Shown here piece after piece: positions 723-13,726 of a stretch of DNA of 64,000 nucleotides. This DNA comes from an uncultured virus (IMG/VR IMGVR_UViG_3300036399_001211) (lineage: Duplodnaviria > Heunggongvirae > Uroviricota > Caudoviricetes): the IMG/VR virus record IMGVR_UViG_3300036399_001211, one strand, 5' to 3'. The notes under the pieces were generated by a model. The model was given only the letters and a program-made list of their open reading frames with translations. It was not told where the DNA came from and did no database searches. Numbering within the stretch: the first letter of the stretch is position 1; every line of letters begins with the position of its first letter. The position numbers and the translations under genes are program-made.

Positions 723-759
723 ACTTCCAATATTAATATATTTTGCAACTATGTCAATA

Positions 760-1035: not shown

Positions 1036-1038
1036 AAA

Positions 1039-1425
1039 TTATTTTATAAATTCTGCAAGGTAAACGTCTCTATCTTCGTAACGAACTTTTACGGCTTCTC
1101 TGGCTATTTGTAATGGGTCATCTTTAAAAGCCCTGACCCTATAACTGCCCCAAAAATCGTAAGTCCATAGCTGGTTTTTTCCTTTTGGGTACATATAAGC
1201 AACTATAGCATGACCTTTTGCTTTTTTGGTTTTCGCGTCAATCCATTCGTATCTCAAAACCTCCGACCATACATCATATTTTCTCAAACCTTCCCTAAAC
1301 GCAATTGCTGTCGGAAGGCAGGCATTTTTTTGGTTTGCCATCCAAGCTTCTGTATTCTTTGGTGTGTTAGAGCAAGACATCAAGCTAGCTCCAATTAGTG
1401 CTAATAGTGTGTTTTTTATTTTCAT
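1039..1425 (-). CDS. putative lipoprotein with papain/transglutaminase-like Cys-His-Asp triad
   Basis: Signal peptide with lipobox LMSC; NAC...GHAIV...WTYD spacing. Confidence 0.5.
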   Translation of the reverse strand: MKIKNTLLALIGASLMSCSNTPKNTEAWMANQKNACLPTAIAFREGLRKYDVWSEVLRYEWIDAKTKKAKGHAIVAYMYPKGKNQLWTYDFWGSYRVRAFKDDPLQIAREAVKVRYEDRDVYLAEFIK

Positions 1426-1811
1426 AAGTTTCTTCTATTTTGGATTATAATCCGTTGCGTGTGTTCTGAAGAAGTTTCTGGATGATTCATTCTCCATGCT
1501 ATTACTTCTTTAGTTTTTTCGAAAATTTCAAAAGCATTTCTGATGTTAATGTTTTCCAGGCGCTGTACTAAAACCAATCTCTCAATATAGTTTTTAAATT
1601 GCACTTCTATCTTTCCTTCTACCAAAAGGGAGGTAAATATAGGATACATATTGGGACAGTGCAATCCTAAAAGCAAAACATATTCTTCAACCTTGCTCAT
1701 AAAGGTTTCAGTATGTTTCATTGTAAATCTGGACGATTGTTGTATTCCAAGTTCTGTGCATTTTTTTTCGCTAATTATTTCAATATCAGGTATTTCAAAA
1801 TTAATATTCAT
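1422..1811 (-). CDS. hypothetical protein
   Basis: ORF, ATGA overlap with next gene. Confidence 0.6.
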   Translation of the reverse strand: MNINFEIPDIEIISEKKCTELGIQQSSRFTMKHTETFMSKVEEYVLLLGLHCPNMYPIFTSLLVEGKIEVQFKNYIERLVLVQRLENINIRNAFEIFEKTKEVIAWRMNHPETSSEHTQRIIIQNRRNL

Positions 1812-1815
1812 ACGT

Positions 1816-2025
1816 TTAACGCGACAATAGAATTGCTTTTATCGCGGCCGGATCTTCTTTCTGGCAAATTTGATAATCACCATAATGCCATTCGGTATGT
1901 TGTTCGCACACTATTGTTTCTACAGCTTCTTCAGGGGTATCGTAATCTGCTTCATAACCATCTACAAGTATGAGTGTTTCTGGATCTAGTTTTTGTAATA
2001 CTTCAATTAGTTCTTTGGCTTTCAT
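1816..2025 (-). CDS. small phage hypothetical protein
   Basis: MKAKELIEVLQKLDP..V.VDGYE N-terminus common in phage proteins. Confidence 0.7.
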   Translation of the reverse strand: MKAKELIEVLQKLDPETLILVDGYEADYDTPEEAVETIVCEQHTEWHYGDYQICQKEDPAAIKAILLSR

Positions 2026-3091
2026 AATTTTGATTTATAATTTTTATCCACTGTTCTTTGGTTATTATCTTACCATCTAAGACGGAAAATACAAATGAAG
2101 AATTTTCTTTAAAATTTCTTTTGATCATTAGTGCCTGTTCTTTTCTGGTTTCTACTGTTCTTATATCATGCACTACTTCAAGGATGTGGTCAATATATTT
2201 TTTTGATTTTTCTCCGGCTTCGCAAATTTTTTTGATCTCATCTTTTAATTGAAAAGCAATTTCATAATCAAAATCAGTTTCAATTATTTTATAAAAATCT
2301 TCTGCGGAGGGCATTTCTTTTTCTATATAAAATTCAATAAGGTTTTTAGTAGAATTTAATTGTGATTTAATCTTGTGCAGAAGAAGATAACGATCAGATT
2401 TGGTTTTCTTGAGTACCTGTCCGTTATTGCCATAAATGACAATCCCTTCTCCTTTCTTCCATTGATTGACAGATTCAATCATTGAGGATAGTGAATTAAA
2501 GTGATATCGAAGTGGTCTTTCTAATTTCCATTCCGAGGCAAAACTATCTAATTGTTTTTGAGGTAGATAAGAATAGTCTTCATGCTTTATTACTCCAGTA
2601 AGCCAAAGAGTTGGTTCTTCTGCTTCTCTTTCAACTATAACATTTCTTGGTGAATACCATTCGCAAACAATTGAATATTGCTCGCTATTCAAAAGGCTAT
2701 TATCAAAAACCAAAGGATATTTTTGTTTTAAAAAAGGAATCTCGTCGCCATTATCCAAAATAGTTGCATCGTGTGTTCCTCTTGTTCTAACAATTAGCTC
2801 TCTTTTAAACTTTGAAACAATCAGAGTTGATCCATCTAACTTGTGGATAAATTCAATGTCGGAGTCGATATCAAGCGGTTCAAATTCTGGTTGTTCACCA
2901 AGATTTGTAAATTTTTTAAATGATCCGCTGACAAGCTCTCCGTTATTTGTCCAAATAGATGAGCGAAATATTTTATTTTGCTCGTTCCATTTGACGTCAA
3001 TTTTAAAAGGGAAAACTAATTTGCAAGCGGTATTTGCAATAACGCAATCTCTAATGCAAAATTCCTCTTTTGTAGGAAGACTAACCTTCAT
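2003..3091 (-). CDS. RNA ligase, T4 Rnl1 (RnlA)-like
   Basis: Nucleotidyltransferase motifs KFTNLGE, KLDGSTLI (I), CEWYSP (III), EGIVIY (IV), KKTK (V). Confidence 0.8.
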   Translation of the reverse strand: MKVSLPTKEEFCIRDCVIANTACKLVFPFKIDVKWNEQNKIFRSSIWTNNGELVSGSFKKFTNLGEQPEFEPLDIDSDIEFIHKLDGSTLIVSKFKRELIVRTRGTHDATILDNGDEIPFLKQKYPLVFDNSLLNSEQYSIVCEWYSPRNVIVEREAEEPTLWLTGVIKHEDYSYLPQKQLDSFASEWKLERPLRYHFNSLSSMIESVNQWKKGEGIVIYGNNGQVLKKTKSDRYLLLHKIKSQLNSTKNLIEFYIEKEMPSAEDFYKIIETDFDYEIAFQLKDEIKKICEAGEKSKKYIDHILEVVHDIRTVETRKEQALMIKRNFKENSSFVFSVLDGKIITKEQWIKIINQNYESQRTN

Positions 3092-3097
3092 CTAATA

Positions 3098-3126
3098 ATA
3101 CTATACTACTTTGCAAAAAACATCAA
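3098..3126 (-). promoter_or_regulatory. sigma70-type promoter TTGATG-N17-TAGTAT, 6 nt before the RNA ligase ATG
   Basis: Read directly on the minus strand. Confidence 0.55.
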
Positions 3127-3184
3127 CCAAAAATAACAAATTGATGCTAGAAAAAATATTGCTACTGCTAAGGCCTTTTTTGTT

Positions 3185-3391
3185 CTATTTTTCATCGTTT
3201 TTATATTTTCTCCAGTCGCTTCTGTGTTTTAAAATCCAATCGATTAGAGCAGCGCTATACCCAATATCATATCCCTTTTTTTCGCTCTCTAGCCATTTAT
3301 GCTTTAAAATTTCCTCTTTTTCTTCTAAGAATTCTTTATATAAAGAAGAATTATAGAATGAAAATTCTGTAGTTGTAACTGCTTCCTCCAT
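3185..3391 (-). CDS. small DUF4032-like protein
   Basis: EEILKHKWLESEKKGYDIG...ALIDW motif; start MEEAV preceded by TAAGTA. Confidence 0.65.
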   Translation of the reverse strand: MEEAVTTTEFSFYNSSLYKEFLEEKEEILKHKWLESEKKGYDIGYSAALIDWILKHRSDWRKYKNDEK

Positions 3392-3407
3392 TATGTTACT
3401 TATTCTT

Positions 3408-4115
3408 TTAAGAATCATAAGAAGAATTCTCCCAAATTTCATTAATATCCAAAAGTTTATGCACACAGCCATTTACTCTTTCAGTCCAAGAACTATGAAA
3501 GTGTCCGTATAGATGAGTTCTTGGTTTACAAAGTTTACAAATTTCATCCATAATTGCTCGTTCTTCGGTTAGATCTTCTAACAAATAAGCATCTTCATTC
3601 GCCCAACCATATACCGTTTCATTAAACTGTTGTGGAAAGCACCAAGATGGAGCAGTATGGGTTACAAGAATATCTACTTCTTTGCATTTTTCCCTATCAA
3701 ATTTAACTATTTCATCTTCCCAATAAGAGCGTCCTTCGGTTCTAGATGTTCTATCAATAGAAACAGCACCACCAATGAATTGAATTTTTTTATCGCCATA
3801 TTCCACCAAGGTATAATCTTCTATTAGTTCAAAATTACTTAATGAAACTCTGTTAAGTCCTTGATAATAAATAGGATCATCATGATTACCTCTAATGGCC
3901 ATAAAGATAATATTTCGTTCTTTAAATTCTTCATTAATCCAATTATTATTTCTTTCTTGATTTTCCTTATCGGTAAATCCAATACCCGAATCTCCAACGC
4001 TAATTAAATAACAATCACTTATTTTTTTAGCATCTATAATATCAAGAAGATATGACCATTCTCCATGATGATCTCCTAAGAATAAAATCGGTTTGTCTTT
4101 GTTTAATGTTTTCAT
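3408..4115 (-). CDS. calcineurin-like metallophosphoesterase
   Basis: GDHHG, GD, RGNHD, HTAP, GHFH motifs; likely start MKTLNK (4115). Confidence 0.9.
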   Translation of the reverse strand: MKTLNKDKPILFLGDHHGEWSYLLDIIDAKKISDCYLISVGDSGIGFTDKENQERNNNWINEEFKERNIIFMAIRGNHDDPIYYQGLNRVSLSNFELIEDYTLVEYGDKKIQFIGGAVSIDRTSRTEGRSYWEDEIVKFDREKCKEVDILVTHTAPSWCFPQQFNETVYGWANEDAYLLEDLTEERAIMDEICKLCKPRTHLYGHFHSSWTERVNGCVHKLLDINEIWENSSYDS

Positions 4116-4116
4116 A

Positions 4117-4428
4117 TTACCATCCATTTTCTCCACGGGCCTCTTCTTGGTCTTTCTTTTCTTGTTTTATGTATCCTATCAACATGTCTTTCAATCCAAC
4201 AAGCGCCTCTTCATATGAACTGTATTCTTTTTCAAGATAATCTAGAATATACCCCCAATGTCGAACTGTATATGTTGGAGGATGGCCGTAACTCCATTTT
4301 GTCTCTACATACCAATGACAATCTTTATCTTTGTGGTGTCCAGGTCCAATTAAAAAATACCACTCTTTTGTTAATTCTGTAATTTCTTTGATAATGTTTT
4401 CCATAATCAATTTAAAAATAATTCCCAA
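4117..4428 (-). CDS. hypothetical protein (true start probably internal MENII)
   Basis: ORF in array. Confidence 0.65.
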   Translation of the reverse strand: MGIIFKLIMENIIKEITELTKEWYFLIGPGHHKDKDCHWYVETKWSYGHPPTYTVRHWGYILDYLEKEYSSYEEALVGLKDMLIGYIKQEKKDQEEARGENGW

Positions 4429-4988
4429 TCTTTCACTTCTTCTTTATTTCTAATATAAAAAGAAACTGGCATAATTCTTGGGGCAGATGGTTTTTTAAGT
4501 AATTTTAATCCTGCTTGTTCCGGTGTTCTATCAGCTTTTAATGCATTTATTTCTTTATGAGCAATTACACAATTTTCCCAAGATGTCTTTCCTCCTTGAG
4601 ATTTTGGAATTACGTGATCTATATTGCCATTTGTTCTTGTTACTTTTTTACCTGTATATTGACAAGTAAAATTATCTCTTTCCCATAAACTTTTCTGTGT
4701 AAATTTTATAGTTTGTTTTGGAATTTTATCATAGTAATTCAAAACTATAACGGTAGGTATTTTAATAAATCCTGTTACGGTTTTTATCTTCCTATCTGTT
4801 TCATTAAGATTTAAACTAACCCATTCATTCCACTCCAATGGAACTACTTTATCTTCTTCTATCATTATTCCTTTTGCGTTTTCAGAATACATTAAAGCAA
4901 AAGAATGTCTAGCTGTAGTCGTGTTAATCGGTATCCAATGCTTGTTTAAAATTAAAACATTATGTCTATCTATAAATTTCATCATCAA
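4407..4988 (-). CDS. HNH endonuclease
   Basis: RDNFTCQYTG...NIDHVIPKSQGGKTSWENCV...N..KADRTPEQAG. Confidence 0.9.
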   Translation of the reverse strand: MMMKFIDRHNVLILNKHWIPINTTTARHSFALMYSENAKGIMIEEDKVVPLEWNEWVSLNLNETDRKIKTVTGFIKIPTVIVLNYYDKIPKQTIKFTQKSLWERDNFTCQYTGKKVTRTNGNIDHVIPKSQGGKTSWENCVIAHKEINALKADRTPEQAGLKLLKKPSAPRIMPVSFYIRNKEEVKDWELFLN

Positions 4989-5632
4989 TCCATTTTATAT
5001 GGTTCTTTAACAATTACATAATATGTTCCTGCAACTTCTTGTACACTAGAACTAGATCCTTTCGGTAGGTTATTCTTAAATGCCTTGTCAACTATCTCCC
5101 AAACTAAAGTAAAGTCTTTATTTTTGATTGCTTTATCCACCCGATCTTGATATCTTTGTGGAATTCTAAATTCTTTTTGTGGTTTCCAATATGCGAATTC
5201 CGACAACACGCGAGAAGGTTCTATGATTTTTGGCATAGGTACTTCGGAACTTTGAAATGCTCCGTTTCCAGAAACATCGCAAATTTGTCTATATCCATCA
5301 TTTCTTTGGTAGTGTAGATATTGTTCAATAGTCTTTTTGATTTCCCATGCTACAGTTCCATCTTTCATTTTTTCGCAACCAATACCATAATAACAATTGC
5401 GATTTTCCATTAGTTCTTCTTCTTTATGGAAAACAATAGTTCTTACCATGCTTTCAAGGACTTCTCCATCTTGATATGTTAGATCCTTATCCCAAAATGC
5501 GGTATCCATTGCGATTTTGATTTGACCGGAACGAAGACGAGAATAGACTTCTAATGCTGTTGCAAGAGTACCAAGATGTCTTTCATCAAACTCTATGGAT
5601 ACTTTTTTAGATGGTTTAGTTTTCTTTTTCAT
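4985..5632 (-). CDS. hypothetical protein
   Basis: 215-aa ORF with overlapping start/stop junctions. Confidence 0.75.
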   Translation of the reverse strand: MKKKTKPSKKVSIEFDERHLGTLATALEVYSRLRSGQIKIAMDTAFWDKDLTYQDGEVLESMVRTIVFHKEEELMENRNCYYGIGCEKMKDGTVAWEIKKTIEQYLHYQRNDGYRQICDVSGNGAFQSSEVPMPKIIEPSRVLSEFAYWKPQKEFRIPQRYQDRVDKAIKNKDFTLVWEIVDKAFKNNLPKGSSSSVQEVAGTYYVIVKEPYKMD

Positions 5633-5889
5633 TTTTCAATCGGGCTAAAATAAATTTTAGGATCTCTTTTAATGTATCGATTATCGGTATCAATGTCAAT
5701 AGTAACATACCAAGATCTACTACCGACTTTTGCAATTTTCTTATTAAGATGTTCAGATTTAGTGAGAATATTCATATATTCTTTATATGTTTTATCCTTT
5801 AACTCGCTTGCTTTTTCGTATGCTTTTTTAACCTTGAAAATTTGGTTAAAAGACACTGGTTTTTCTTTTTTAATTTTAGAATTTTTCAT
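5629..5889 (-). CDS. hypothetical basic protein
   Basis: ORF 5629..6003; likely start MKNSK (5889) just after the upstream stop. Confidence 0.6.
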   Translation of the reverse strand: MKNSKIKKEKPVSFNQIFKVKKAYEKASELKDKTYKEYMNILTKSEHLNKKIAKVGSRSWYVTIDIDTDNRYIKRDPKIYFSPIEK

Positions 5890-5890
5890 T

Positions 5891-6244
5891 TTAGTTATCG
5901 TTGCTACTACAATTAACATCAAATCCACCAGTCCTACGATATGCTGGATTTTCTTCTCCCAATTCAAACCAAGTATTAGAACCCTTTTCGGCAGAATTTC
6001 CAAACTCTGTTAACTCGATATTTTCTCCGAGTTTTTTTAAATTTTCTTGTACATCATAATCTAATTCTTCTGATGGTTCTGAATATTCCAGATTCAACCC
6101 TTCAATATATTTTAAAAACTCTTGTTGACTGTCTCCGGTATATGGATTTTCTTCCAAATCGCGGAAATCATTTGGGTCTAATTCAACTACTTCACTTGCG
6201 AGGTATAATGTTACGTTTTCTCTTTTGCGGATTTTGTATGTCAT
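5891..6244 (-). CDS. hypothetical acidic protein
   Basis: ORF directly behind a sigma70-type promoter. Confidence 0.75.
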   Translation of the reverse strand: MTYKIRKRENVTLYLASEVVELDPNDFRDLEENPYTGDSQQEFLKYIEGLNLEYSEPSEELDYDVQENLKKLGENIELTEFGNSAEKGSNTWFELGEENPAYRRTGGFDVNCSSNDN

Positions 6245-6255
6245 AATTTTTATAT

Positions 6256-6284
6256 ATAGTAATGTAAAAATAATAAAATGTCAA
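6256..6284 (-). promoter_or_regulatory. sigma70-type promoter TTGACA-N17-TACTAT
   Basis: Read directly in intergenic gap. Confidence 0.7.
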
Positions 6285-6287
6285 CAA

Positions 6288-6635
6288 TTATTTGTAGTAT
6301 GAATCTTCTCCAAAATTTTCATCCAGATCAACTCTATCCTTTAACCATGCTGCCAATGCCCAATGGTAATATGTGTAATTTGGATCTCCTTCATAATGAA
6401 AGAAAGTATGACCAAGATCATATTGAATCTGCATTAGAATCTTATTTTTAATTCCTTTTGGTGCTCTACTTTCCAACATCCAAGAATCCAGAAACACTTT
6501 ACAATCCATTCCAAAATCCCATTCAAAATGAGCTATTTTATTTTTTCTATCTACAAAATATAAATCGATATAAATTGGTTCTTTACATTTTATTATTCCA
6601 AGTTCATATATTGTGTCTGGTAATTTAATTTTCAT
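6288..6635 (-). CDS. hypothetical protein
   Basis: ORF in array. Confidence 0.7.
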   Translation of the reverse strand: MKIKLPDTIYELGIIKCKEPIYIDLYFVDRKNKIAHFEWDFGMDCKVFLDSWMLESRAPKGIKNKILMQIQYDLGHTFFHYEGDPNYTYYHWALAAWLKDRVDLDENFGEDSYYK

Positions 6636-6825
6636 TTGATGATATATCGAAAGTTGCGTTTTTATATAATTTTAATTGATCAGATCTAAAATGCAATATG
6701 TTTCCACCCTTTTCCATAACAACAGTCCAAATATCATTTTCAAATGTTCCTCCATGCGAAACATATATGGCATAGCCACCACCAATAGGGGTTATCACAG
6801 GAATTGGATTTTTAAATTCTAACAT
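6625..6825 (-). CDS. small phage hypothetical protein
   Basis: ORF overlapping both neighbours. Confidence 0.7.
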   Translation of the reverse strand: MLEFKNPIPVITPIGGGYAIYVSHGGTFENDIWTVVMEKGGNILHFRSDQLKLYKNATFDISSNEN

Positions 6826-7072
6826 TTTCTAAAAATATTGGTGTGTTTTCTCCTACCCATGCGCCTTCCACATTATATTGAAAATATTCTTCGGCTTCTT
6901 CTTCTGACATATCTTCTTGTAAAATATCAATACATTTAGATCTATTGTATACAGCAATAGGTCTACCAAATTGTCTACCAATACCAACAAATGCATCATC
7001 AAAACCATCTGCTAATAATACATTTTCATCTTCGCCTAATATATCTATAATTTTTTCTTTTAGTGTTTTCAT
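6812..7072 (-). CDS. conserved phage hypothetical protein
   Basis: ADGFDDAFVG...EEAEEYFQYNVEGAWVGENTPIF, a motif widespread in phages. Confidence 0.8.
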   Translation of the reverse strand: MKTLKEKIIDILGEDENVLLADGFDDAFVGIGRQFGRPIAVYNRSKCIDILQEDMSEEEAEEYFQYNVEGAWVGENTPIFLENVRI

Positions 7073-7176
7073 TTTATTAAAACTTCTAATATTCTATATG
7101 TTCCATATAAAGTGGAATACATAGTTGCTATTATTATAGCAACCCAACAACAAATATCAAACCAATTCTTTTTCAT
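7069..7176 (-). CDS. 35-aa single-pass membrane peptide (MKKNWFDICCWVAIIIATMY...)
   Basis: Manual translation; fills the gap and ends in ATGA overlap with next start; below the ORF-track cutoff. Confidence 0.55.
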   Translation of the reverse strand: MKKNWFDICCWVAIIIATMYSTLYGTYRILEVLIK

Positions 7177-7465
7177 CTGTATATACTAAAAAATCTAAAA
7201 TATTAAATTTTTCCTTTAACATTTCATCCACTTCGTCCAATATACTATTATCATTAGAAATATCAGAAAAAGATAAATCGTTTATTTTTTGTTTAATTTC
7301 ATTATCAATTTCTATCATTCTTGACAATTCTTTTAAAAATTCTTTTTGTTCGGATTTTCCTTTATAGTTGTCTAATACAAGATTGCACAATTTTTTAGAC
7401 TCTTCGACGGCTCTTTCGCAATAATCTATTAATTCTTGCGAAATAATTTTTTCATCTTTTTTCAT
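7157..7465 (-). CDS. hypothetical protein
   Basis: ORF behind TTGCAT-N17-TAAAAT (7475..7503). Confidence 0.7.
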   Translation of the reverse strand: MKKDEKIISQELIDYCERAVEESKKLCNLVLDNYKGKSEQKEFLKELSRMIEIDNEIKQKINDLSFSDISNDNSILDEVDEMLKEKFNILDFLVYTDEKELV

Positions 7466-7513
7466 CGCATAATAATTTTAACATATTTAAAATTGTTATG
7501 CAATATATTTTTT

Positions 7514-8113
7514 TTAAAGTATTCCTTTTATTCTAAGATAGGTTGCTCCACCGATTGATGCTAGTAAAACAATAATTATAATATTTCTATGCAAAATAGC
7601 CAAATCTTTTTCTATTAACTTTTTTTGCATTATATTCAAATCTCTTATCATTTTATCATTATATTCCATTTGACGAATCAATTCCTGATCAATCAATTTT
7701 TTAGTTTCAACCAAAGAATAATTGTCTCTTTCTATTTGTTCATAGGTTTCTTTATCTTTTAAAAGTTGTTGATATTCTTGGGAACTAACAACTACTACTG
7801 TATCGGTTTTATATTTCTCTGGAATAATTAAAACTCTTTGTTTATTGATAACAGTGGGTTTAACTTTACTTTGACTTGATATTGTATCTATATTTTTTTT
7901 ATAAACTGGTTTAATATCTATTCTTTGCTTTGGGGGTTTTACTATTCTGGTTGATTCGTTAGCATAGGTATCGGCTAAGTCTAGTCTTGCGTTGTCTAGA
8001 GAGTCTTTGGTAGCATAAACCGAACGAGATAATGCTTCGGATTGTTTTTCGGTATATACTGTACAACTATTTAAAAACAATAAAATAAAACAAAATAAAA
8101 ATAACTTTTTCAT
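7514..8113 (-). CDS. lipoprotein with C-terminal TM helix; candidate unimolecular spanin
   Basis: Lipobox LNSC at residue 17, coiled-coil-like middle, C-terminal IIIIVLLASIGGATYL; TAAGTA 6 nt upstream. Confidence 0.55.
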   Translation of the reverse strand: MKKLFLFCFILLFLNSCTVYTEKQSEALSRSVYATKDSLDNARLDLADTYANESTRIVKPPKQRIDIKPVYKKNIDTISSQSKVKPTVINKQRVLIIPEKYKTDTVVVVSSQEYQQLLKDKETYEQIERDNYSLVETKKLIDQELIRQMEYNDKMIRDLNIMQKKLIEKDLAILHRNIIIIVLLASIGGATYLRIKGIL

Positions 8114-8141
8114 ATGATGTACTTATCTTTTTTTTAAATAA

Positions 8142-8226
8142 AAGAGGGTGTGAGATTCGAACTCACGGAACATTTCTGTTCACAAAGGTTCAAGCTTTGC
8201 ACGTTAAACCGCTCCGTCAACCCTCC
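8142..8226 (-). tRNA. tRNA-Ser(TGA), long variable arm, CCA not encoded
   Basis: GGAGGGT/ACCCTCT acceptor, CAAAG-CTTGAAC-CTTTG anticodon arm, GTGAG-TTCGAAT-CTCAC T arm. Confidence 0.85.
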
Positions 8227-8264
8227 ATATATACTTACCTTTATCTATTCTTTAGGAGGATAAA

Positions 8265-8339
8265 TGGCATCTCTAATCGAATTTGAATCGATACTAATAC
8301 CGTGAAAGGGTACTGTGCTAACCGTTACACTATAGAGAC
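8265..8339 (-). tRNA. tRNA-Glu(TTC)
   Basis: GTCTCTA/TAGAGAT acceptor, GTACC-CTTTCAC-GGTAT anticodon arm, G73 plus CCA. Confidence 0.9.
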
Positions 8340-8342
8340 TTA

Positions 8343-8446
8343 TGGAGCCTGAGATCGAATTCGAATCGATGACCGACGGTTTACGCGAATCGTCCGAATT
8401 TCTGACAACTCGCAAAACCGTTGCTCTACCACTGAGCTACACAGGC
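8343..8446 (-). tRNA. tRNA, probably Thr (TGT or CGT), with 29-nt hairpin insertion in the anticodon loop
   Basis: GCCTGTG/CTCAGGC acceptor, T73+CCA, D arm GCTC-AGTGGTA-GAGC, ACGGT/ACCGT stem closing a 36-nt loop. Confidence 0.85.
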
Positions 8447-8455
8447 ATTTAAAAA

Positions 8456-8540
8456 TGGTGGGTTATCTAGGTAACGATCCTAGCCATGCAATGCAACTTC
8501 TTTTACAGAGAAGCCTGTGTCCTTAACAGTATACTAACCC
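8456..8540 (-). tRNA. tRNA-Tyr(GTA), atypical D and T arms
   Basis: GGGTTA/TAACCC acceptor, CTTCT-CTGTAAA-AGAAG, long variable region, A73+CCA, T loop ATCGTTA. Confidence 0.8.
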
Positions 8541-8584
8541 ATATATTTAATTTACCATATTAAGTAAATAATTCAAGTTAAATA

Positions 8585-9245
8585 TCGATCCAGAAAGTTC
8601 TTCATTGGCTACCGTGTTTTTAACACGTTGGACGAAGATACTTGTTACCCCCTGCCTAATCGGGTCTGGTGACAGTCCGCAACGGTTAGCTTTTTAAGAA
8701 CAGCACATCACACCATTCCCGTCCGACACGTCAAATTGTATACCAAGACTTCTCATTCTAATCACTAGTCCTCCAAGTATCTTATGGACGCATACATAAT
8801 AATCGAAGAAGTTCCCTATGGGTTAAATGTTGTTTCCGGAAACATTGCATTGTCACCCATCGCGGTAGAGCTTTCGAAGGCATCTGCGCTTGGTAAAAAA
8901 CACCCGCCAAAGTGTGCATGGATCTTACTTTCATTTCTTTGTACTTCAGAAACTACTTCTTGCAAGCAGAGGCATGGCGGGTCTGCTAAATAAAGCCAAT
9001 TGAGGTAAGCCTTTGTTGCGCTTCCCCACAAAGCAGGGTATAATCTACGCTTACAGGACAAGAGACGACTCCCATTTCCCCCAACCAGCTAAGATAAAAT
9101 GTCAAAGATCATTACCACTGATTCGCATAGCTGGCTCAATGGTCAAGCCTCTGTAGGTTTCTTACCTCTGGTAAAGAACAGTTTCCGATTTTGGTTTCGA
9201 CCGAGTATTCCCAGTCCCATTGGCTCATCGGGAACCAACTACCTT
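8585..9245 (-). ncRNA. candidate large structured non-coding RNA (~660 nt)
   Basis: GC-richer than flanks, no credible ORF, many complementary segments, starts just after a consensus promoter, lies 5' of the tRNA cluster; ends approximate. Confidence 0.7.
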
Positions 9246-9251
9246 ATAAAG

Positions 9252-9280
9252 ACTATATATTATTTTTTAACAATTGTCAA
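9252..9280 (-). promoter_or_regulatory. sigma70-type promoter TTGACA-N17-TATAGT driving the ncRNA/tRNA region
   Basis: Near-consensus, read directly. Confidence 0.8.
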
Positions 9281-9298
9281 TATTTTTAATTACTTACT

Positions 9299-9781
9299 TT
9301 ATACCACATCAAAAAGTTTACATAAACTATCTACTATAGACAAATTAGTATCAGTATTGTTTTTATTTGGTTGTTCTTCAAATCCAACTCCATAATCACC
9401 ATAAGGATCACCAATTTCCAAATCATTATTATCCGAAACAGAAACTTTTGGAGTCTCTTCTACAAAACCACCATTTAATTCTAATATAAGGATGAGAAGT
9501 TGATTTAAAACAATATCTTTTTCTGCACCGGAAACAAATTCTTCTATATCTTTTCTTTTAAATTTTCCGGATAGTTCTGTAAAAAAACATTCATAATTAG
9601 CAAATACATAATGAGGGAGATATTTCATTGTTATATTAGCACAGTCTTTTATAACATGATAGGCGGATTTGTTTTGAATTGTAATACCTGTCTCTGGATT
9701 ATTAGCGGCTTTTTTAGCAGCCGAAAATAATTTTGCTTCTTTTATCTTACTATTTTCTAAAAGTATTTCTATAAATTTCAT
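9299..9781 (-). CDS. hypothetical protein
   Basis: 160-aa ORF, ATGA overlap. Confidence 0.75.
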   Translation of the reverse strand: MKFIEILLENSKIKEAKLFSAAKKAANNPETGITIQNKSAYHVIKDCANITMKYLPHYVFANYECFFTELSGKFKRKDIEEFVSGAEKDIVLNQLLILILELNGGFVEETPKVSVSDNNDLEIGDPYGDYGVGFEEQPNKNNTDTNLSIVDSLCKLFDVV

Positions 9782-9960
9782 AGGTAGTTTGAAAATTCTT
9801 TATCTAGTTCTTCCAATTCTTTATTTATTTCAGATAACTCTTTCAAGAGTCTTTCGCATTCTTTTGGGTTTTTTTTATAAACATCCAAAATATCATCGGT
9901 CATATGTTTTAATTTAAATTTCGTATCTTCCACATCATCCAATTCTTTAAAAACATTCAT
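9778..9960 (-). CDS. small coiled-coil hypothetical protein
   Basis: ORF with overlapping junctions. Confidence 0.65.
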   Translation of the reverse strand: MNVFKELDDVEDTKFKLKHMTDDILDVYKKNPKECERLLKELSEINKELEELDKEFSNYL

Positions 9961-10136
9961 CGAATAACTTTCATTCCACCTGATTCAAGATTTGTTACTC
10001 TGTATAATGTATTTGTATTTGGATAATATTTGCTGTACTTCGCATGATATGTTTTAATTTCTTCCCTTGTTTTAAATGGAGATAGCATTACTTCATACCA
10101 CATTCCTTCGTTTTCTTTTCTTTCTAGTTTATACAT
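9957..10136 (-). CDS. hypothetical protein
   Basis: ORF 9957..10175; likely start MYKLE (10136). Confidence 0.6.
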   Translation of the reverse strand: MYKLERKENEGMWYEVMLSPFKTREEIKTYHAKYSKYYPNTNTLYRVTNLESGGMKVIR

Positions 10137-10137
10137 A

Positions 10138-11151
10138 TTAGTCTTTATAGTTTCGGTTGATGAGTTTAAATCCAAGTGGTCTGCGAGAAGAATAACCTTT
10201 CGGATAAGATGAAGGTCTTACTACAATTCCTTCACCTTCTAAACCACTTGGATATTTTTGTTTATCTGCGAGTTCTTGAAGTTTTTGCAATGGATTTACC
10301 CAAAGTTTTATTTGATCTTCTAAACCTAATTTACATACTAGCGGAACAACATCACAATGTAAAGAATTTTCGCAAAAATTTTTCATCTCTTCATATGTCA
10401 TGTATTTTTTGTTTTCGCTAATCTGGAATACGAAAATCTTAACATCTTCCAATTTAAGCTGGTTGCGTTGAATTCCATTTCCACAAAGTTCTCCAGCAAT
10501 AGTACCAGTCCAATTTTCTGGAATAGTTAGCTTTCGTGCGGCTTTCCAGAGTGTATTATTTTCGGTTTCTTTTTTGGATAAATTTCTTGTGCAAACTTGG
10601 GTGAGTTCTCCATTTTCAACAATTAGTGTTATAGAACTTCCATCCAATTTGCTTGTTACTGTGATATGAGAATCATGATTAAGAACTTTTTCAACCAATT
10701 TAGGATCATTCAGTCCATTGTCTTCATCGGTCTTAGAGGCTAAATGAGTAGGAAAATCACCCAATGTTTCTCCAGAGAGATTTGCCGGAATTTCTTTTAT
10801 ATATTTGGTGATTCCCAATAATTCGGTTAGATTTTCTCCGACCACAACTGTTTCGGTAAATTGATCAGGAAATTCACTCAGAGGAATAACCAAGCCGGAA
10901 CTATACTCTCCACGTAATTTAATATTCTTGAGCCTAATTGGTTTGTCTGGATTTTTCTGATCTACTAAAAATTCAGACCAAGTATATCGAGGAACAATAG
11001 TATCAATTGTAATGAATACCACTTTATCCCCCTCTTTATGAATTCCTTTTTTTACTACTGTTTGCCAGCCTAAAACTTCACAAAGTTCTAAAGAATCGGC
11101 ATTATCGTGATTTTTTATAGATTTAATAACTTCTATTGATGCAAGTTTCAT
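10138..11151 (-). CDS. RNA ligase, DRB0094/DraRnl family (Rnl2-like, N-terminal OB-like domain)
   Basis: LASIEVI...NADSLELCEVLGWQTVVKKG N-terminus; KTDE; KLDGSS; GELCGNGIQRN; EGIVVR; FKLI. Confidence 0.88.
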   Translation of the reverse strand: MKLASIEVIKSIKNHDNADSLELCEVLGWQTVVKKGIHKEGDKVVFITIDTIVPRYTWSEFLVDQKNPDKPIRLKNIKLRGEYSSGLVIPLSEFPDQFTETVVVGENLTELLGITKYIKEIPANLSGETLGDFPTHLASKTDEDNGLNDPKLVEKVLNHDSHITVTSKLDGSSITLIVENGELTQVCTRNLSKKETENNTLWKAARKLTIPENWTGTIAGELCGNGIQRNQLKLEDVKIFVFQISENKKYMTYEEMKNFCENSLHCDVVPLVCKLGLEDQIKLWVNPLQKLQELADKQKYPSGLEGEGIVVRPSSYPKGYSSRRPLGFKLINRNYKD

Positions 11152-11157
11152 ATAAAA

Positions 11158-11186
11158 AATGTATCAGAATATAAAAACTTTGTCAA
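11158..11186 (-). promoter_or_regulatory. sigma70-type promoter TTGACA-N17-TACATT, 6 nt before ligase ATG
   Basis: Read directly. Confidence 0.7.
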
Positions 11187-11425
11187 TGGTTCTTTTTTCT
11201 TTTTTTGTCCTTTGAGAATATTTTATTAGGTGCTATACAAAATTCATTTAAATAGCAATCATCACAATCTCTGTTTTTGAGAAATATGTCTGGTCGTAAA
11301 CATGACCCTCTTGTTATCTCTTCACATAATTGTTTATTCTTGGAAAATCCTACTTTCTTTTTAGGTTCTTCTATTTCTGGTTTAAGTATTATTCGTTCAA
11401 CGATTTGTTTTTTCTTTCTACCCAT
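11183..11425 (-). CDS. small basic Cys-rich protein
   Basis: C..C..CDDC..C pattern, Lys-rich ends. Confidence 0.65.
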   Translation of the reverse strand: MGRKKKQIVERIILKPEIEEPKKKVGFSKNKQLCEEITRGSCLRPDIFLKNRDCDDCYLNEFCIAPNKIFSKDKKRKKNH

Positions 11426-11430
11426 AACTA

Positions 11431-11883
11431 TTATTTATGTTCCGTGTATACTATTTCCGATTCATCAAATATTAATTTACTTATTTTTATAGATTCTTTC
11501 CATCTTTCAAAAAATTCAGGATCATTGTTTTTATAATATATTTTCTTTATTCCGGCTTGGGCTATAGATTTTGCACATTCATTACAAGGAAAATACGATA
11601 CAAATAGTGTTCCATTTTTAACATTTATTCCATTGTGCGATGAATTTAGTAGAGCATTCATTTCCGCATGTACAATTAGTTTATATTTTAATTCTCGATT
11701 CTCATATCTTTCGGCTAGATCTTTTACTTTTCTAGGGAATCCGTTCCAACCGATTAATGGAACATCAGAATTTTCTGGTATGATTACTGCTCCTACCTTT
11801 GTTTTATCATAAGACCAAGAAGCAGCTAAATCAACTAACTGAAACCACCTGTTGATCCACTTTAATTCTTTTTCCATATCCAA
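11431..11883 (-). CDS. cd: dCMP deaminase
   Basis: KVGAVI, GWNGFP, HAEMNAL, PCNECAK. Confidence 0.92.
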   Translation of the reverse strand: MDMEKELKWINRWFQLVDLAASWSYDKTKVGAVIIPENSDVPLIGWNGFPRKVKDLAERYENRELKYKLIVHAEMNALLNSSHNGINVKNGTLFVSYFPCNECAKSIAQAGIKKIYYKNNDPEFFERWKESIKISKLIFDESEIVYTEHK

Positions 11884-12938
11884 TTTGGTTCTACAAAGAT
11901 ACCCTCTCTATCAGATTTGCTATTTGTTCTTTTCATCATTCGGTAATTTAAATTATCAACTTTAGTAGAATTTGTCAATCCATTTATAAAATCATTCATA
12001 GGATCGCAGATTCTGTTGATTGTATGATTGCAGTAAACATCACTTATATTGATAGATAGGTGTCCACCGGATTTTAAAATTTTCCATGATCCTTCTAATA
12101 CCGGAAATAAAAATCCGTTTAGCCATTTGTCGATTTTTTTGTATCTCTGCCAAGATTGTGAAGAGTCCTTGGAATAGCGTTCGATTATAAAATAAGGAGG
12201 ACTGGTGAATATTAGATCAAATTCATCATTTAGATTTTTAATAGCATCTTCGGCTGGTTCTGGAATCATTTGAATATTTTTACCTTTACCAAAAAGTTCG
12301 ATTTGTTTATTGTAATTTTCGACTAAATTTTTATTTGGATCTATTCCGGTATAAGATTTAACATAATCCGATGCCATTGCTCCGGAAAGTCTATCTCCCC
12401 AACCAGAACTAAAATCCAATACCGTTTCAGCCTTAAAGTAATCGTACATAAATTTTGCGGCTGATGGTCTAAATTGGCTGGCTATGTATTTTCTAAGAGC
12501 TATACAGGTTCTCAATGTTTCTGATGTAACCTCTTTAACCTTTAAGGTCCATAGAGCATTTAAAAGAGTCATGAAAAATTTATTATCGTTCCATGTTCTA
12601 TATGGCGATGGAGAATTTATGGAATCACACTTAAATCTTAAATCTTGATGAAAATAATTGGATGACTTATTTCCGACATTGCAAGAATCTATATAACTAT
12701 TACCCAATTCCCATTTATATTCGTATCTACTAAAAAGATTATCACTTTTTAGTAATGGTGTTGTATCTAATTCTTTTAATTTTTTGAAATCTTCTAGTGC
12801 ATCAATTTCTTCGATTTCTACCAAAGGAACCTGAAAATTTCTTGTTTTTTCCCATACAAGCTCTTTTATGGAATTATCTGGTTTTGGAAAGTCTTTTAAT
12901 ATTTCCGACCATTCTTTTTGGTTATATATTACGAACAT
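11862..12938 (-). CDS. amino-DNA methyltransferase (m4C or m6A)
   Basis: QFRPSAAK, VLDFSSGWGDRL (SAM binding), FTSPPYF (catalytic). Confidence 0.85.
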   Translation of the reverse strand: MFVIYNQKEWSEILKDFPKPDNSIKELVWEKTRNFQVPLVEIEEIDALEDFKKLKELDTTPLLKSDNLFSRYEYKWELGNSYIDSCNVGNKSSNYFHQDLRFKCDSINSPSPYRTWNDNKFFMTLLNALWTLKVKEVTSETLRTCIALRKYIASQFRPSAAKFMYDYFKAETVLDFSSGWGDRLSGAMASDYVKSYTGIDPNKNLVENYNKQIELFGKGKNIQMIPEPAEDAIKNLNDEFDLIFTSPPYFIIERYSKDSSQSWQRYKKIDKWLNGFLFPVLEGSWKILKSGGHLSINISDVYCNHTINRICDPMNDFINGLTNSTKVDNLNYRMMKRTNSKSDREGIFVEPNWIWKKN

Positions 12939-12946
12939 CTATATAC

Positions 12947-12975
12947 ATCATACATAGTGTTTATAGCCGTGTCAA
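12947..12975 (-). promoter_or_regulatory. sigma70-type promoter TTGACA-N17-TATGAT
   Basis: Read directly; 8 nt before ATG. Confidence 0.75.
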
Positions 12976-12979
12976 TATT

Positions 12980-13726
12980 TTAGGTATTTATTATTTGAGA
13001 TTTTGATTTTTTTGCGGCATCATTATAAGATGTTTTAGCTTGATTTTTTGCAAAATTTTTATATCTTTTCCATAAGCTAGGTTTCTTTTTTTCGTCGCTA
13101 AAAATTTCCCTCGACTTACTAGATGGTAGGTTTGTTTTTTTATTATTTGTAGGTGGTTGAGTTGGATTAGGTGGTTGAGTTGGATTAGGTGGTTGAGTTG
13201 GATTAGGTGGTTGAGTTGGATTAGGTGGTTGGGTTGGATTAGGTGGTTGAGTGGATTGAGCGTTAGGAAGATTGGCATTCGTTTTATTTATACCGCCTAT
13301 ACTTTCATAATAATCGGCTAATGCATCATATATGAAATCGCCACTACTTTGTTCGTCTAGTTCGTCGGTATAGCTAAGATTACCATTACGGGAATATTCT
13401 AGTGCTAAAGGATCAACAATTTGTGATGTATCTATTTGCGGATAATTTCTTTTTAAGAAATCAGCCAGATAATCCAGTGTTATCGGTATAGGAGAATTTC
13501 TTGATGTTGCGTTATTTGCTTCCCAATCATTTTCTAAATCTCCCCAAACATCTCTATAAACATCCATCAAATTGTTTCGGGCTGTGCTTGTCGGATGTTC
13601 TAATGGTCCTCCTGCCATTCGGTCCCATGCTCCTTGAATCATGCTTCTTTGTCTAGGTGCAGCTTCATTTAAAAGTATTTGGTTAGTATAAATATCTTCT
13701 AATAAAATTGTATCAGAGTCTCGCAT
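12980..13726 (-). CDS. hypothetical protein with QPPNPT repeats, possible internal head protein
   Basis: N-terminus LLEDIY..ILLNE; TAAGTA 6 nt upstream. Confidence 0.75.
   Translation of the reverse strand: MRDSDTILLEDIYTNQILLNEAAPRQRSMIQGAWDRMAGGPLEHPTSTARNNLMDVYRDVWGDLENDWEANNATSRNSPIPITLDYLADFLKRNYPQIDTSQIVDPLALEYSRNGNLSYTDELDEQSSGDFIYDALADYYESIGGINKTNANLPNAQSTQPPNPTQPPNPTQPPNPTQPPNPTQPPNPTQPPTNNKKTNLPSSKSREIFSDEKKKPSLWKRYKNFAKNQAKTSYNDAAKKSKSQIINT
13148..13255 (-). repeat. 18-nt tandem repeat, about 6 copies, encoding TQPPNP
   Basis: ggttgagttggattaggt repeated on + strand. Confidence 0.9.

What the first reader, a model, noticed from the sequence alone, without database searches (positions are those of the whole stretch)
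8343..8446. tRNA with a 29-nt hairpin inserted in the anticodon
Seen: a complete cloverleaf with CCA whose anticodon loop is TTT-[GCGAGTTGTC AGAAATTCG GACGATTCGC]-GTAA. The insert (8385..8413) forms a 10-bp stem with G-U pairs that stacks on the anticodon stem. Removing 29 nt after position 34 or 35 gives UGU, after 33 gives CGU (both Thr, matching G1-C72, C2-G71, U73, A37-A38). A canonical 37/38 splice would give UGC (Ala), but there is no G3-U70. It is far too short for a group I intron and I see no bulge-helix-bulge. Inference: a protein-spliced mini-intron, an anticodon-shielded decoy, or a non-decoding tRNA-like RNA.
Basis: partly seen in the sequence, partly recalled or inferred. Interest (0 to 1): 0.85.

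Follow-up and report, generated by a model that had tools for sequence, protein, structure and literature searches.

The report
Hairpin mini-intron in phage threonine tRNA
A large bacterial virus carries a threonine tRNA gene split inside its anticodon by a conserved 29-base hairpin, which looks like a small intron that must be cut out and rejoined by proteins, a way of splicing tRNA not yet shown for bacteria or their viruses.

Summary
On the minus strand, 8343-8446 is a full tRNA cloverleaf (Rfam tRNA, 55.3 bits) with a 29-nt hairpin in the anticodon loop. The window is part of a T4-like phage of about 200 kb.

The insert is not unique. Five other metagenomic phage sequences carry it in tRNA-Thr genes whose acceptor and T stems have diverged with compensating changes. 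The lower hairpin pairs covary. A related phage has the same tRNA, in the same Tyr-Thr-Glu gene order, without the insert.

Only one split, between G35 and U36 (intron 8384-8412), gives the same anticodon, UGU, in all six genes. That split leaves a hairpin with a 2-nt 3' overhang, the cut pattern of RNase III. Such ends need no repair before an ATP-dependent ligase joins them, and the phage encodes two such ligases (T4 Rnl1-like and Naegleria Rnl5-like).

Splicing is inferred, not shown, because no RNA data could be reached. The ligases also occur in relatives without the insert. Two other insert types in related phages do not show the same 2-nt stagger.

Earlier reports of this scan (e1-6035681, e1-5975574) described similar hairpins on other DNA and proposed the same route. 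The only related paper I found is Devoto 2019, on 'enigmatic' Lak phage tRNA introns.

The parts
8343..8446 (-). tRNA-Thr(UGU) gene with a 29-nt insert and an encoded CCA (8343-8345)
   Evidence: Rfam RF00005 at 55.3 bits; sequence; fold
8413..8446 (-). Exon 1: acceptor 5' strand, D arm, anticodon stem 5' strand, then U32 U33 U34 G35
   Evidence: Identical to the 5' half of the intron-less ortholog L290:15370-15441; boundary
8384..8412 (-). Inferred 29-nt intron: 9-bp stem with two conserved G.U pairs, an A.G mismatch, a 2-bp apical stem with a 3-nt loop, and a 2-nt 3' tail
   Evidence: The split after the 4th loop base is the only one giving UGU in 6 of 6 genes. MAFFT places the gap there. 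Pair counts; overhang.
8346..8383 (-). Exon 2: U36 A37 A38, anticodon stem 3' strand, variable loop, T arm, acceptor 3' strand, U73
8456..8540 (-). tRNA-Tyr(GUA)-like gene with a long variable arm, an unusual T loop and CCA, directly upstream
   Evidence: Found by ARAGORN only at lowered threshold. No Rfam tRNA hit at E<=5. About 93% identical in G001 as part of the 232-bp shared block.
8265..8339 (-). tRNA-Glu(UUC), next gene in the cluster
8142..8226 (-). tRNA-Ser(UGA), last gene in the cluster
9252..9280 (-). Sigma-70-like promoter (11 of 12 consensus positions), likely start of the transcript that carries the tRNA cluster
   Evidence: This is a consensus match only.
2003..3091 (-). T4 Rnl1-family RNA ligase, candidate sealing enzyme
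   Evidence: PF09511 E 3.2e-15; phrog_562; T4 Rnl1 in PDB, E 7.6e-5 for the single sequence and 4.5e-14 for the profile; AF2 model at pLDDT 75 whose top Foldseek hits are T4 Rnl1 over about full length
10138..11151 (-). Rnl5-type RNA ligase (N-terminal OB domain plus nucleotidyltransferase), second candidate sealing enzyme
   Evidence: PF21189 plus PF09414; Naegleria gruberi RNA ligase 5cot, E 1.3e-38
3408..4136 (-). Calcineurin-like metallophosphoesterase, possible RNA end-healing enzyme in the same module
   Evidence: PF00149 E 4e-13; phrog_1649

Best explanation
The 29 nt at 8384-8412 (minus strand) are a protein-dependent mini-intron that sits inside the anticodon of the phage's tRNA-Thr(UGU), between G35 and U36.

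In the precursor, the intron hairpin stacks on the anticodon stem. G35 pairs with the next-to-last intron base, and U34 lies opposite the last intron base. The two splice sites therefore face each other across a continuous helix, offset by two base pairs.

I infer the following route. A double-strand-specific endonuclease of the RNase III type, most likely the host's, makes this staggered cut. That releases a hairpin with a 2-nt 3' overhang and leaves the exons with 3'-OH and 5'-phosphate ends, still held together by the tRNA body. A phage ATP-dependent RNA ligase, most likely the Rnl1-like enzyme, then seals the nick in the anticodon loop. The product is an ordinary 75-nt tRNA-Thr(UGU).

Shown here: the structure, its conservation and covariation, the exact empty site, the unique consistent junction, the 2-nt geometry, and the presence of the ligases.

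Inferred: that splicing happens at all (about 0.5), and that RNase III is the cutter (about 0.3).
For: 1. The exons are an ordinary tRNA-Thr(UGU). All 232 matches I extracted have a single G in the gap, giving UGU.

2. An exact empty site exists. L290 has Tyr, Thr and Glu genes in the same order, and its Thr gene has a 5' half identical to exon 1 and no insert. L265, L291 and L017 also lack the insert.

3. Six insert-bearing genes were found: the window, G001 (L001/L245), L246, L249, L250 and L256. Counting these six alone, 96.7% of cells are paired. Pairs with changes on both sides number 4 of 7 in the acceptor stem, 5 of 5 in the T stem and 2 of 9 in the intron stem. None of 500 shuffles reached the observed values. 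The interrupted genes have therefore been kept as working cloverleaves through considerable divergence.

4. Two G.U pairs are invariant in the intron stem. On the opposite strand they would be A.C mismatches, so the constraint acts on RNA of the tRNA-sense strand.

5. The G after UUU is invariant, whereas the base just before UAA is G, G, G, G, U or A. Only the split after the 4th loop base gives one anticodon (UGU) in 6 of 6 genes. MAFFT places the gap at the same point.

6. With that split, the first intron base pairs with base n-2 in 5 of 6 genes. The sixth has a U.U mismatch in the same register. The result is a 2-nt 3' overhang.

7. The window encodes an Rnl1-family ligase and an Rnl5-type ligase. 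G003, which also carries the hairpin, has Rnl1 at 97% amino-acid identity.

8. On G001 and G003, as far as those fragments reach, the interrupted gene is the only tRNA-Thr. ACA makes up 44% of 1490 Thr codons in the window's ORFs.

9. T4 Rnl1 joins tRNA halves broken in the anticodon loop (PMC3400036, passages read).
Against: No RNA evidence is available.

The ligase module is not specific to insert-bearing phages. Rnl5 relatives lie in 50 of 50 related loci by construction. Rnl1 was found in 23 of 50 and the phosphoesterase in 27 of 50, nearly all beside intron-less or absent tRNA-Thr genes. An earlier scan note (e1-6046834) likewise found no link between inserts and repair enzymes in another phage.

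No RNase III gene was found in the window or in 5 related records, one of them a complete 202,880-bp genome. The cutter would therefore have to come from the host.

The overhang follows arithmetically from the choice of junction, so the 2-nt agreement is roughly a one-in-three coincidence rather than a proof.

Other anticodon-loop inserts do not fit a 2-nt stagger. The 21-nt hairpin in L247 gives 1 nt (read by hand). The 49-nt T-arm-type insert in tRNA-Asn of L250 gives about 4 nt.

The covariation inside the intron rests on only 2 pairs and 6 sequences.

The strict sequence conservation of the inner stem is more than RNase III is known to require (recalled knowledge), which hints at a different, specific partner.
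Confidence: 0.5

Rival explanations
1. The insert is a true intron removed at 35|36, but the cutter is not RNase III. Candidates are an unrecognised phage endonuclease, RNase P/Z-type recognition of the 12-layer hairpin as a minihelix, or an enzyme that measures from the tRNA body. Sealing would still be done by a phage or host ligase.
For: The inner 7 bp of the stem, the A.G mismatch and the G-C pair above it are invariant in sequence across genes whose tRNA bodies have diverged. That fits a sequence-specific partner. A 129-aa ORF of unknown family (1422-1811) sits next to Rnl1. Among everything I hold, it occurs only in the window and in G003, both of which carry the hairpin. It is absent from G002, G004, G005 and the 50 ligase loci. 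Related phages carry a second insert type with a T-arm-like hairpin, for which RNase P/Z-like recognition is plausible. Stagger differs between insert types.
Against: The window and G003 share that whole segment at 78-100% identity, so the co-occurrence is effectively one observation. The ORF has no family hit. Its AF2 model is unusable at pLDDT 45, and the protein atlas gave no lead. RNase Z cutting after a discriminator base would leave one extra base on exon 2 (my reading of the structure).
Confidence: 0.2
2. The RNA is never spliced. It acts as a stable tRNA-shaped RNA whose anticodon is buried in a helix, for example as a decoy or sponge for a host tRNA-targeting or double-strand-RNA-binding defence protein, or as a tRNA scaffold that displays the hairpin.
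For: The hairpin's inner sequence is strongly conserved. The gene sits beside an unusual tRNA-Tyr-like gene, and the block of both genes is 94.8% identical between two phages that otherwise share only scattered protein similarity. Phage tRNAs have been proposed to counter host anticodon nucleases (PMC10264068; search listing and start of the abstract only). A defence system that cuts tRNA-Tyr is reported (PMC13096335; start of the abstract in the listing).
Against: A decoy has no need for an intact, invariant UUUG...UAA loop sequence. Here conservation changes exactly at one exon/intron boundary. The gene occupies the slot of the only tRNA-Thr(UGU), which relatives keep uninterrupted. A buried anticodon loop would be a poor mimic for an anticodon nuclease.
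Confidence: 0.2
3. The hairpin is a selfish or accidental DNA insertion that inactivated the gene, which is now a transcribed pseudogene.
For: Presence is patchy among related phages. Of the 50 ligase loci, 9 have an intron-less Thr gene and 5 have Tyr directly followed by Glu with no Thr gene. The T-arm-type insert occurs in two or three different tRNAs, which suggests mobility.
Against: The interrupted genes show no decay. All stems are at least 95% paired, with many compensating changes, across four different tRNA bodies. The conserved G.U pairs argue for an RNA-level constraint. The hairpin core is not a dispersed repeat: of 54 viral loci matching its core pattern, only 1 lies in a tRNA, and that one is a known member. 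It occurs once in the window. There is no target-site duplication, since the last base varies.
Confidence: 0.1

Closest known systems
'Enigmatic' tRNA introns of Lak megaphages (Devoto et al. 2019, PMC6784885; passages read, supplementary Table 6 not seen)
   Same: These are phage tRNA genes interrupted in the anticodon loop. The inserts are highly conserved where present, related genomes have exact empty sites, and the inserts fall in no Rfam class. A tRNA-Thr(TGT) is among those affected, and the true excision point was found there to be offset from the software's prediction.
   Different: The Lak Thr intron is described as possibly encoding a tRNA itself, and no mechanism was proposed. Here the insert is a plain 29-32-nt hairpin in a different phage group (T4-like, about 200 kb). 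The junction is resolved to 35|36, and a specific cut-and-seal route is proposed.
Archaeal and eukaryal protein-spliced tRNA introns (bulge-helix-bulge, EndA/Sen endonuclease, RtcB or Trl1 ligase)
   Same: A short intron in the anticodon loop that cannot splice itself, removed by endonuclease plus ligase (PMC3400036).
   Different: There is no bulge-helix-bulge. The position is 35/36, not 37/38. No EndA or RtcB gene was found in the window or in 5 related records. The predicted ends are 5'-phosphate and 3'-OH rather than cyclic phosphate and 5'-OH.
T4 Pnkp/Rnl1 tRNA repair pathway
   Same: A phage Rnl1-family ligase that rejoins tRNA halves broken in the anticodon loop (PMC3400036). The window has an Rnl1 homolog with the same two-domain build.
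   Different: In T4 the break is host-inflicted damage to a host tRNA and needs end healing by Pnkp. Here the break would be a programmed step in maturing the phage's own tRNA. No P-loop kinase motif occurs in the 19 ORFs tested at 2003-13726 and no kinase family among the window's ORFs.
RNase III-excised intervening sequences of bacterial 23S rRNA (recalled knowledge, no call)
   Same: An extra hairpin that extends a native helix and is cut out by a staggered double-strand cut.
   Different: The rRNA fragments are not rejoined. A tRNA cut in the anticodon must be resealed to decode.
Bacterial group I introns in tRNA anticodon loops
   Same: An interrupted anticodon loop in a bacterial-type tRNA gene, with patchy distribution.
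   Different: Those introns are self-splicing ribozymes of roughly 200 nt or more. This insert is 29 nt, has no Rfam intron hit, and exon 1 ends in G rather than U.

Membership tests
tRNA (Rfam RF00005), isotype Thr(UGU) | Full cloverleaf that scores above the gathering threshold | tested here: met
   55.3 bits against a gathering score of 29, model positions 1-71, with one 32-nt insertion in the anticodon loop
tRNA (Rfam RF00005), isotype Thr(UGU) | Thr anticodon and a Thr-type body | tested here: met
   The flanks equal the anticodon arm of 232 of 232 intron-less UGU tRNAs. The ortholog L290 is called Thr(tgt). G1-C72 and C2-G71 are read; that these are Thr identity elements is recalled.
Group I self-splicing tRNA intron | Ribozyme core of roughly 200 nt or more, a U before the 5' splice site, a G at the intron's 3' end | tested here: not met
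   The insert is 29 nt with no Rfam intron match. Exon 1 ends in G at the only consistent junction. The last intron base is G, U or A.
Bulge-helix-bulge tRNA intron (archaeal/eukaryal) | Two 3-nt bulges separated by a 4-bp helix at the splice sites | tested here: not met
   The helix is continuous with a single 1-nt bulge
Bulge-helix-bulge tRNA intron (archaeal/eukaryal) | EndA-type splicing endonuclease available | tested here: not met
   No PF01974 among 61 window ORFs or in 5 related phage records, while the controls gave hits. The host genome is unknown.
Lak-type 'enigmatic' phage tRNA intron (a descriptive class) | Anticodon-loop insert in a phage tRNA gene, conserved among relatives, with intron-less alleles elsewhere | tested here: met
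   paper passages
RNase III substrate | Extended double helix across the cut sites | tested here: met
   An 18-pair helix, stacked on the tRNA body below and about 12 layers above the cut
RNase III substrate | Cuts staggered so as to leave a 2-nt 3' overhang | tested here: met
   The inferred junction gives 2 nt in 5 of 6 genes by pairing and 6 of 6 by register. The junction itself is inferred, not observed.
RNase III substrate | Actual cleavage by RNase III, giving 5'-phosphate and 3'-OH ends | not testable with these tools
   Needs an enzyme assay or RNA end mapping
T4 Rnl1-type tRNA repair | Rnl1-family ligase with a nucleotidyltransferase domain and a helical C-terminal domain | tested here: met
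   PF09511; profile against T4 Rnl1, E 4.5e-14; model helical from residue 233 to 361; Foldseek aligns 376-389 columns to T4 Rnl1
T4 Rnl1-type tRNA repair | Partner polynucleotide kinase-phosphatase | tested here: inconclusive
   No kinase family among the window's ORFs and no P-loop motif in the 19 ORFs tested at 2003-13726; a metallophosphoesterase is present. A strong AAA_33 kinase hit appears in 1 of 4 related records. Only 64 kb of about 200 kb is visible.

The most novel reading that the evidence does not exclude
This is the first protein-dependent tRNA splicing pathway of the bacterial world. A mini-intron placed inside the anticodon (35|36) is excised by a staggered RNase III-type cut and resealed by a phage RNA-repair ligase. 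The phage's tRNA-Thr would then become functional only where both activities are present. Inserts of this and a second type move between tRNA genes of a whole group of roughly 200-kb freshwater phages.
Probability: 0.3. Interest if true: 0.9.

Novelty: new variant of a known kind. Interest (0 to 1): 0.78.

Why it matters
Textbooks divide tRNA introns into self-splicing group I introns in bacteria and protein-spliced introns in archaea and eukaryotes (PMC3400036). A short hairpin intron in a phage tRNA that cannot splice itself would break that division.

It would also give phage RNA ligases, so far understood as repair enzymes against host anticodon nucleases, a routine job in tRNA maturation. 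And it would add a new role for RNase III.

The six-way comparison gives an exact, testable junction (UUUG|UAA) and a predicted by-product: a 29-nt hairpin with a 2-nt 3' overhang, a 5'-phosphate and a 3'-OH. A few bench experiments can therefore settle the question.

It may also explain the 'enigmatic' phage tRNA introns reported in 2019.

Tried and rejected
- Named phages: no match in the INPHARED collection for 7500-9500.
- ARAGORN with introns gives different isotypes for members of the same family: Arg(gcg), Asn(gtt) and His(gtg). I rejected these calls as artefacts of its fixed 37/38 rule.
- L248 matched the pattern but has no tRNA 5' half. Dropped.
- L243 has an insert but no pairing anticodon stem. 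Dropped as unclear.
- L247 carries a different 21-nt hairpin and was kept apart from the counts.
- Hairpin as a dispersed repeat: rejected.
- ORF 7514-8113, syntenic with the tRNA cluster, looks like a membrane-anchored coiled-coil protein and also occurs in intron-less relatives. Rejected as the cutter.
- ORF 1422-1811 (P0001): no family, only 6 clusters in the large protein database, AF2 pLDDT 45, no lead from the atlas. Left open.
- No RNase III, EndA or RtcB in 5 related records.
- Literature searches found no paper on short hairpin introns in phage tRNAs, or on RNase III-plus-ligase tRNA splicing, other than Devoto 2019.
- The 661-nt leader upstream of the cluster folds no better than shuffles (z = +0.34) and has no Rfam family.

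Full report
**What is there**

The feature lies on the minus strand. Rfam's tRNA model matches 8346-8446(-) at 55.3 bits (gathering score 29) over its full length, with a 32-nt insertion inside the anticodon loop. CCA follows at 8345-8343. Default ARAGORN misses the gene. With introns allowed it reports 'Arg(gcg), 27-nt intron' on a shifted stem, and it gives other isotypes for close relatives, so I do not use its calls.

The whole RNA folds as a cloverleaf whose anticodon arm runs on as an 18-pair helix with one bulged U: -40.2 kcal/mol, z = -3.66.

**Genomic setting**

The window is phage DNA. It holds baseplate and tail genes, a gp25-like wedge protein, a gp44-like clamp loader and an HNH endonuclease. 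No whole genome is held, and no named phage matches.

Fifty viral loci encode relatives of the window's ligase at 10138-11151, at 36-96% identity. One of them is a complete 202,880-bp genome with terminal repeats.

The tRNA sits in a cluster: a Tyr-like gene (8456-8540), Thr (8343-8446), Glu (8265-8339) and Ser (8142-8226). The cluster lies downstream of a strong promoter-like site at 9280-9252 and a roughly 670-nt ORF-poor stretch.

**The exons are an ordinary tRNA-Thr(UGU)**

In all 232 matches I could extract, the gap is a single G, which gives the loop UUUGUAA.

Within the related phages, ARAGORN finds an intron-less Thr(tgt) in 9 of the 50 loci. In L290 that gene lies between the same Tyr and Glu genes as in the window. 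Its 5' half is identical to the window's exon 1, and its 3' half differs at 3 T-arm positions. This is an exact empty site. Five other loci have Tyr directly followed by Glu, with no Thr gene.

**The insert is a small conserved family**

Scans that required a 15-45-nt gap found the insert in five further sequences:
- G001 (IMG/VR contig; the same contig appears in the metagenome set)
- L246, L249 and L250
- L256/G003

I dropped L248 (no tRNA 5' half) and L243 (no anticodon stem), and I kept L247 apart because it carries a different 21-nt hairpin.

The six genes have four different tRNA bodies. Counting the six alone:
- 96.7% of cells are paired.
- Pairs changed on both sides: 4 of 7 in the acceptor stem, 5 of 5 in the T stem, 2 of 9 in the intron stem.
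- One further intron pair switches between U.G and U-A.
- 0 of 500 shuffles reach the observed values, and slid controls drop to 26-46% paired.

The inner seven intron pairs never change in five cases. The sixth changes only between U.G and U-A, and the seventh breaks in one gene. Two of the invariant pairs are G.U. An A.G mismatch and the G-C pair above it are also invariant, while the apical loop varies in length, giving inserts of 29 or 32 nt. G.U pairs would be A.C mismatches on the other strand, so the constraint acts on the RNA of the tRNA-sense strand.

The hairpin is not a dispersed repeat. A core pattern hit 54 viral loci, about the number expected by chance. Only one of them lies in a tRNA, and that one is L256's contig.

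**Where the junction is**

In the window alone, removing 29 nt after position 34 or after position 35 both give UGU. Across the family, the G after UUU is invariant, but the base just before UAA is G in four genes, U in L249 and A in L256.

I enumerated every way of keeping seven loop bases. Only the split after the fourth base (exon 1 ends UUUG, exon 2 starts UAA) gives a single anticodon, UGU, in 6 of 6 genes. MAFFT independently puts the gap of the intron-less genes at the same place.

The intron is therefore 8384-8412, between G35 and U36. Conservation changes from invariant to free or covarying exactly at that line. That is what an exon/intron boundary looks like, and it is not what an unspliced structural RNA needs.

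**Geometry and proposed mechanism**

With that junction, G35 pairs with the next-to-last intron base and U34 faces the last one. The first intron base pairs with base n-2 in 5 of 6 genes; L256 has a U.U mismatch in the same register. The excised piece is thus a hairpin of about 12 stacked layers with a 2-nt 3' overhang, and the exon side carries the matching 2-nt overhang.

A 2-nt 3' overhang with 5'-phosphate and 3'-OH ends is the signature of RNase III. This is recalled, established knowledge and comes from no call. Such ends can be joined by ATP-dependent RNA ligases without end healing.

The window encodes two such ligases:
- **2003-3091** is a T4 Rnl1-family enzyme: PF09511; profile against T4 Rnl1 E 4.5e-14; AF2 model at pLDDT 75 whose best Foldseek hits are the three T4 Rnl1 structures, aligned over about full length, with an all-helical C-terminal part.
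- **10138-11151** is an Rnl5-type enzyme like the Naegleria 'nick-sealing RNA ligase' (E 1.3e-38).

A metallophosphoesterase lies beside Rnl1. T4 Rnl1 is the enzyme that rejoins tRNA halves broken in the anticodon loop (PMC3400036, passages).

My best reading is that an RNase III-type cut plus sealing by a phage ligase yields a normal 75-nt tRNA-Thr(UGU). Two weak points fit a working gene. ACA is the commonest Thr codon in the window, at 44% of 1490. The interrupted gene is the only tRNA-Thr on the fragments G001 and G003.

**What speaks against it**

- Nothing shows that the RNA is made or spliced.
- The ligases are not specific to insert carriers. Rnl1 is found in 23 and the phosphoesterase in 27 of the 50 related loci, nearly all without the hairpin. 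Rnl1 is in 4 of 5 larger records.
- No RNase III, EndA or RtcB gene is in the window or in five related records, while the controls rang. The cutter would have to be the host's, and the host is unknown.
- The overhang is tied arithmetically to the junction: blunt at 34/35, and 2 nt at 35/36. The agreement is suggestive only.
- Other inserts do not share the 2-nt stagger. L247's 21-nt hairpin gives a 1-nt stagger if its product is UGU (my reading). The T-arm-type insert of L250's tRNA-Asn gives about 4 nt.
- The strict sequence conservation of the inner stem suggests a more specific partner than RNase III.

**A possible partner**

Window 270-4428 is 78-100% identical at the protein level to a segment of G003, the other large hairpin-bearing record. 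One ORF in that segment, 1422-1811 (129 aa), is 100% identical there. It is absent from G002, G004, G005 and from all 50 ligase loci.

The ORF has no family hit, has only 6 clusters in the large protein database, and gave an unusable model. Because the two phages share the whole segment, this amounts to one observation and not an association.

**Comparison with what is known**

The literature searches turned up one relevant paper. Devoto et al. 2019 (PMC6784885; passages read, supplement not seen) reports conserved 'enigmatic' introns in Lak megaphage tRNAs, including a Thr(TGT) whose intron may itself encode a tRNA. It gives no mechanism.

The feature here is not a group I intron: it is 29 nt, has no Rfam hit, and exon 1 ends in G. 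It is not a bulge-helix-bulge intron either. It resembles RNase III-excised rRNA intervening sequences in shape (recalled), and T4 tRNA repair in the sealing step.

Earlier reports of this scan describe the same kind of hairpin in tRNA-Thr of other phages (e1-6035681, 32 nt; e1-5975574, 28 nt) and propose the same double-strand nuclease plus ligase route. I reached it from the six-way junction analysis, but this is not independent evidence. Another earlier report (e1-6046834) found no link between such inserts and repair enzymes, which matches my.

**Verdict**

The insert is real, conserved and selected at the RNA level, and it interrupts a tRNA-Thr(UGU) gene that is kept functional. It is most likely a protein-dependent mini-intron at 35|36 (about 0.5). 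RNase III plus a phage ligase is the leading route but is unproven (about 0.3).

Noticed in passing
L295:15022-15144, L305:12049-12171, L250:520-642; G002 contig 180097-180230: A second insert type occurs in related phages. It is 49-50 nt, contains a T-arm-like hairpin with a UUCGAUU loop, and sits in the anticodon loop of tRNA-Asn(GUU); intron-less orthologs are in L296 and L256. It also sits in a long-variable-arm tRNA of the complete genome G002, where the anticodon is ambiguous (UCU, GCU or GUU). In L250 it lies right next to the hairpin-bearing tRNA-Thr. For Asn, 35|36 is the only split that gives the orthologs' anticodon GUU in both sequences. The stagger is not a clean 2 nt.
   Followed up: partly
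window 8577-9251 (minus strand): A roughly 670-nt ORF-poor stretch (longest ORF 81 aa, TTG start) lies between a strong promoter-like site (9280-9252) and the tRNA cluster. Parts of it match 29 of the 50 related loci at 77-96% nucleotide identity, in blocks, and about 450 nt in the middle is missing in some relatives. It has no Rfam family (only a weak abiF hit, E 0.022, at 8902-8981), and its fold is no better than shuffles (z = +0.34). It could be a modular non-coding RNA or a leader; this is unresolved.
   Followed up: partly
window 8456-8540 (minus strand); L249 upstream of its tRNA-Thr: A tRNA-Tyr(GUA)-like gene with a long variable arm, CCA and a non-canonical T loop. ARAGORN finds it only at lowered threshold, and Rfam does not find it. 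Relatives have a normal tRNA-Tyr in this slot. L249 has another odd tRNA-like gene (CAU anticodon loop, unusual T loop, CCA) just upstream of its hairpin-bearing Thr.
   Followed up: partly
window 8346-8576 versus G001 contig 49066-49322: The block holding the Tyr-like gene and the interrupted Thr gene is 94.8% identical between the window and G001. The two phages otherwise share only scattered protein similarity (36-92%) in a different gene order. Similarity stops exactly at the discriminator base: CCA follows in the window and in L246, but not in G001.
   Followed up: partly
window 1422-1811 (minus strand): A 129-aa ORF of no known family lies beside the Rnl1-like ligase. It is 100% identical in G003 (also hairpin-bearing) and absent from three larger intron-less relatives and from 50 ligase loci. 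Only 6 clusters exist in the large protein database. The structure model is unusable.
   Followed up: partly
window 270-4428 versus G003 contig 72322-76533: This gene segment (Rnl1, phosphoesterase and small ORFs) is 78-100% identical at the protein level between two phages whose Rnl5 ligases are only 61% identical. That indicates mosaic exchange of the RNA-repair module.
   Followed up: no
L247:3983-4076: A different tRNA-Thr(UGU) on a 23-kb metagenome contig carries an unrelated 21-nt hairpin at the same place in the anticodon loop. Its T stem has one mismatch. An earlier scan note (e1-6086262) describes a 21-nt hairpin family, but a sequence look-up found no shared words.
   Followed up: partly
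window 4407-4988 (minus strand): An HNH endonuclease gene lies inside the RNA-repair/tRNA region and is present in only 14 of 50 related loci. It may be a free-standing homing endonuclease that could move neighbouring cassettes. This was not examined.
   Followed up: no
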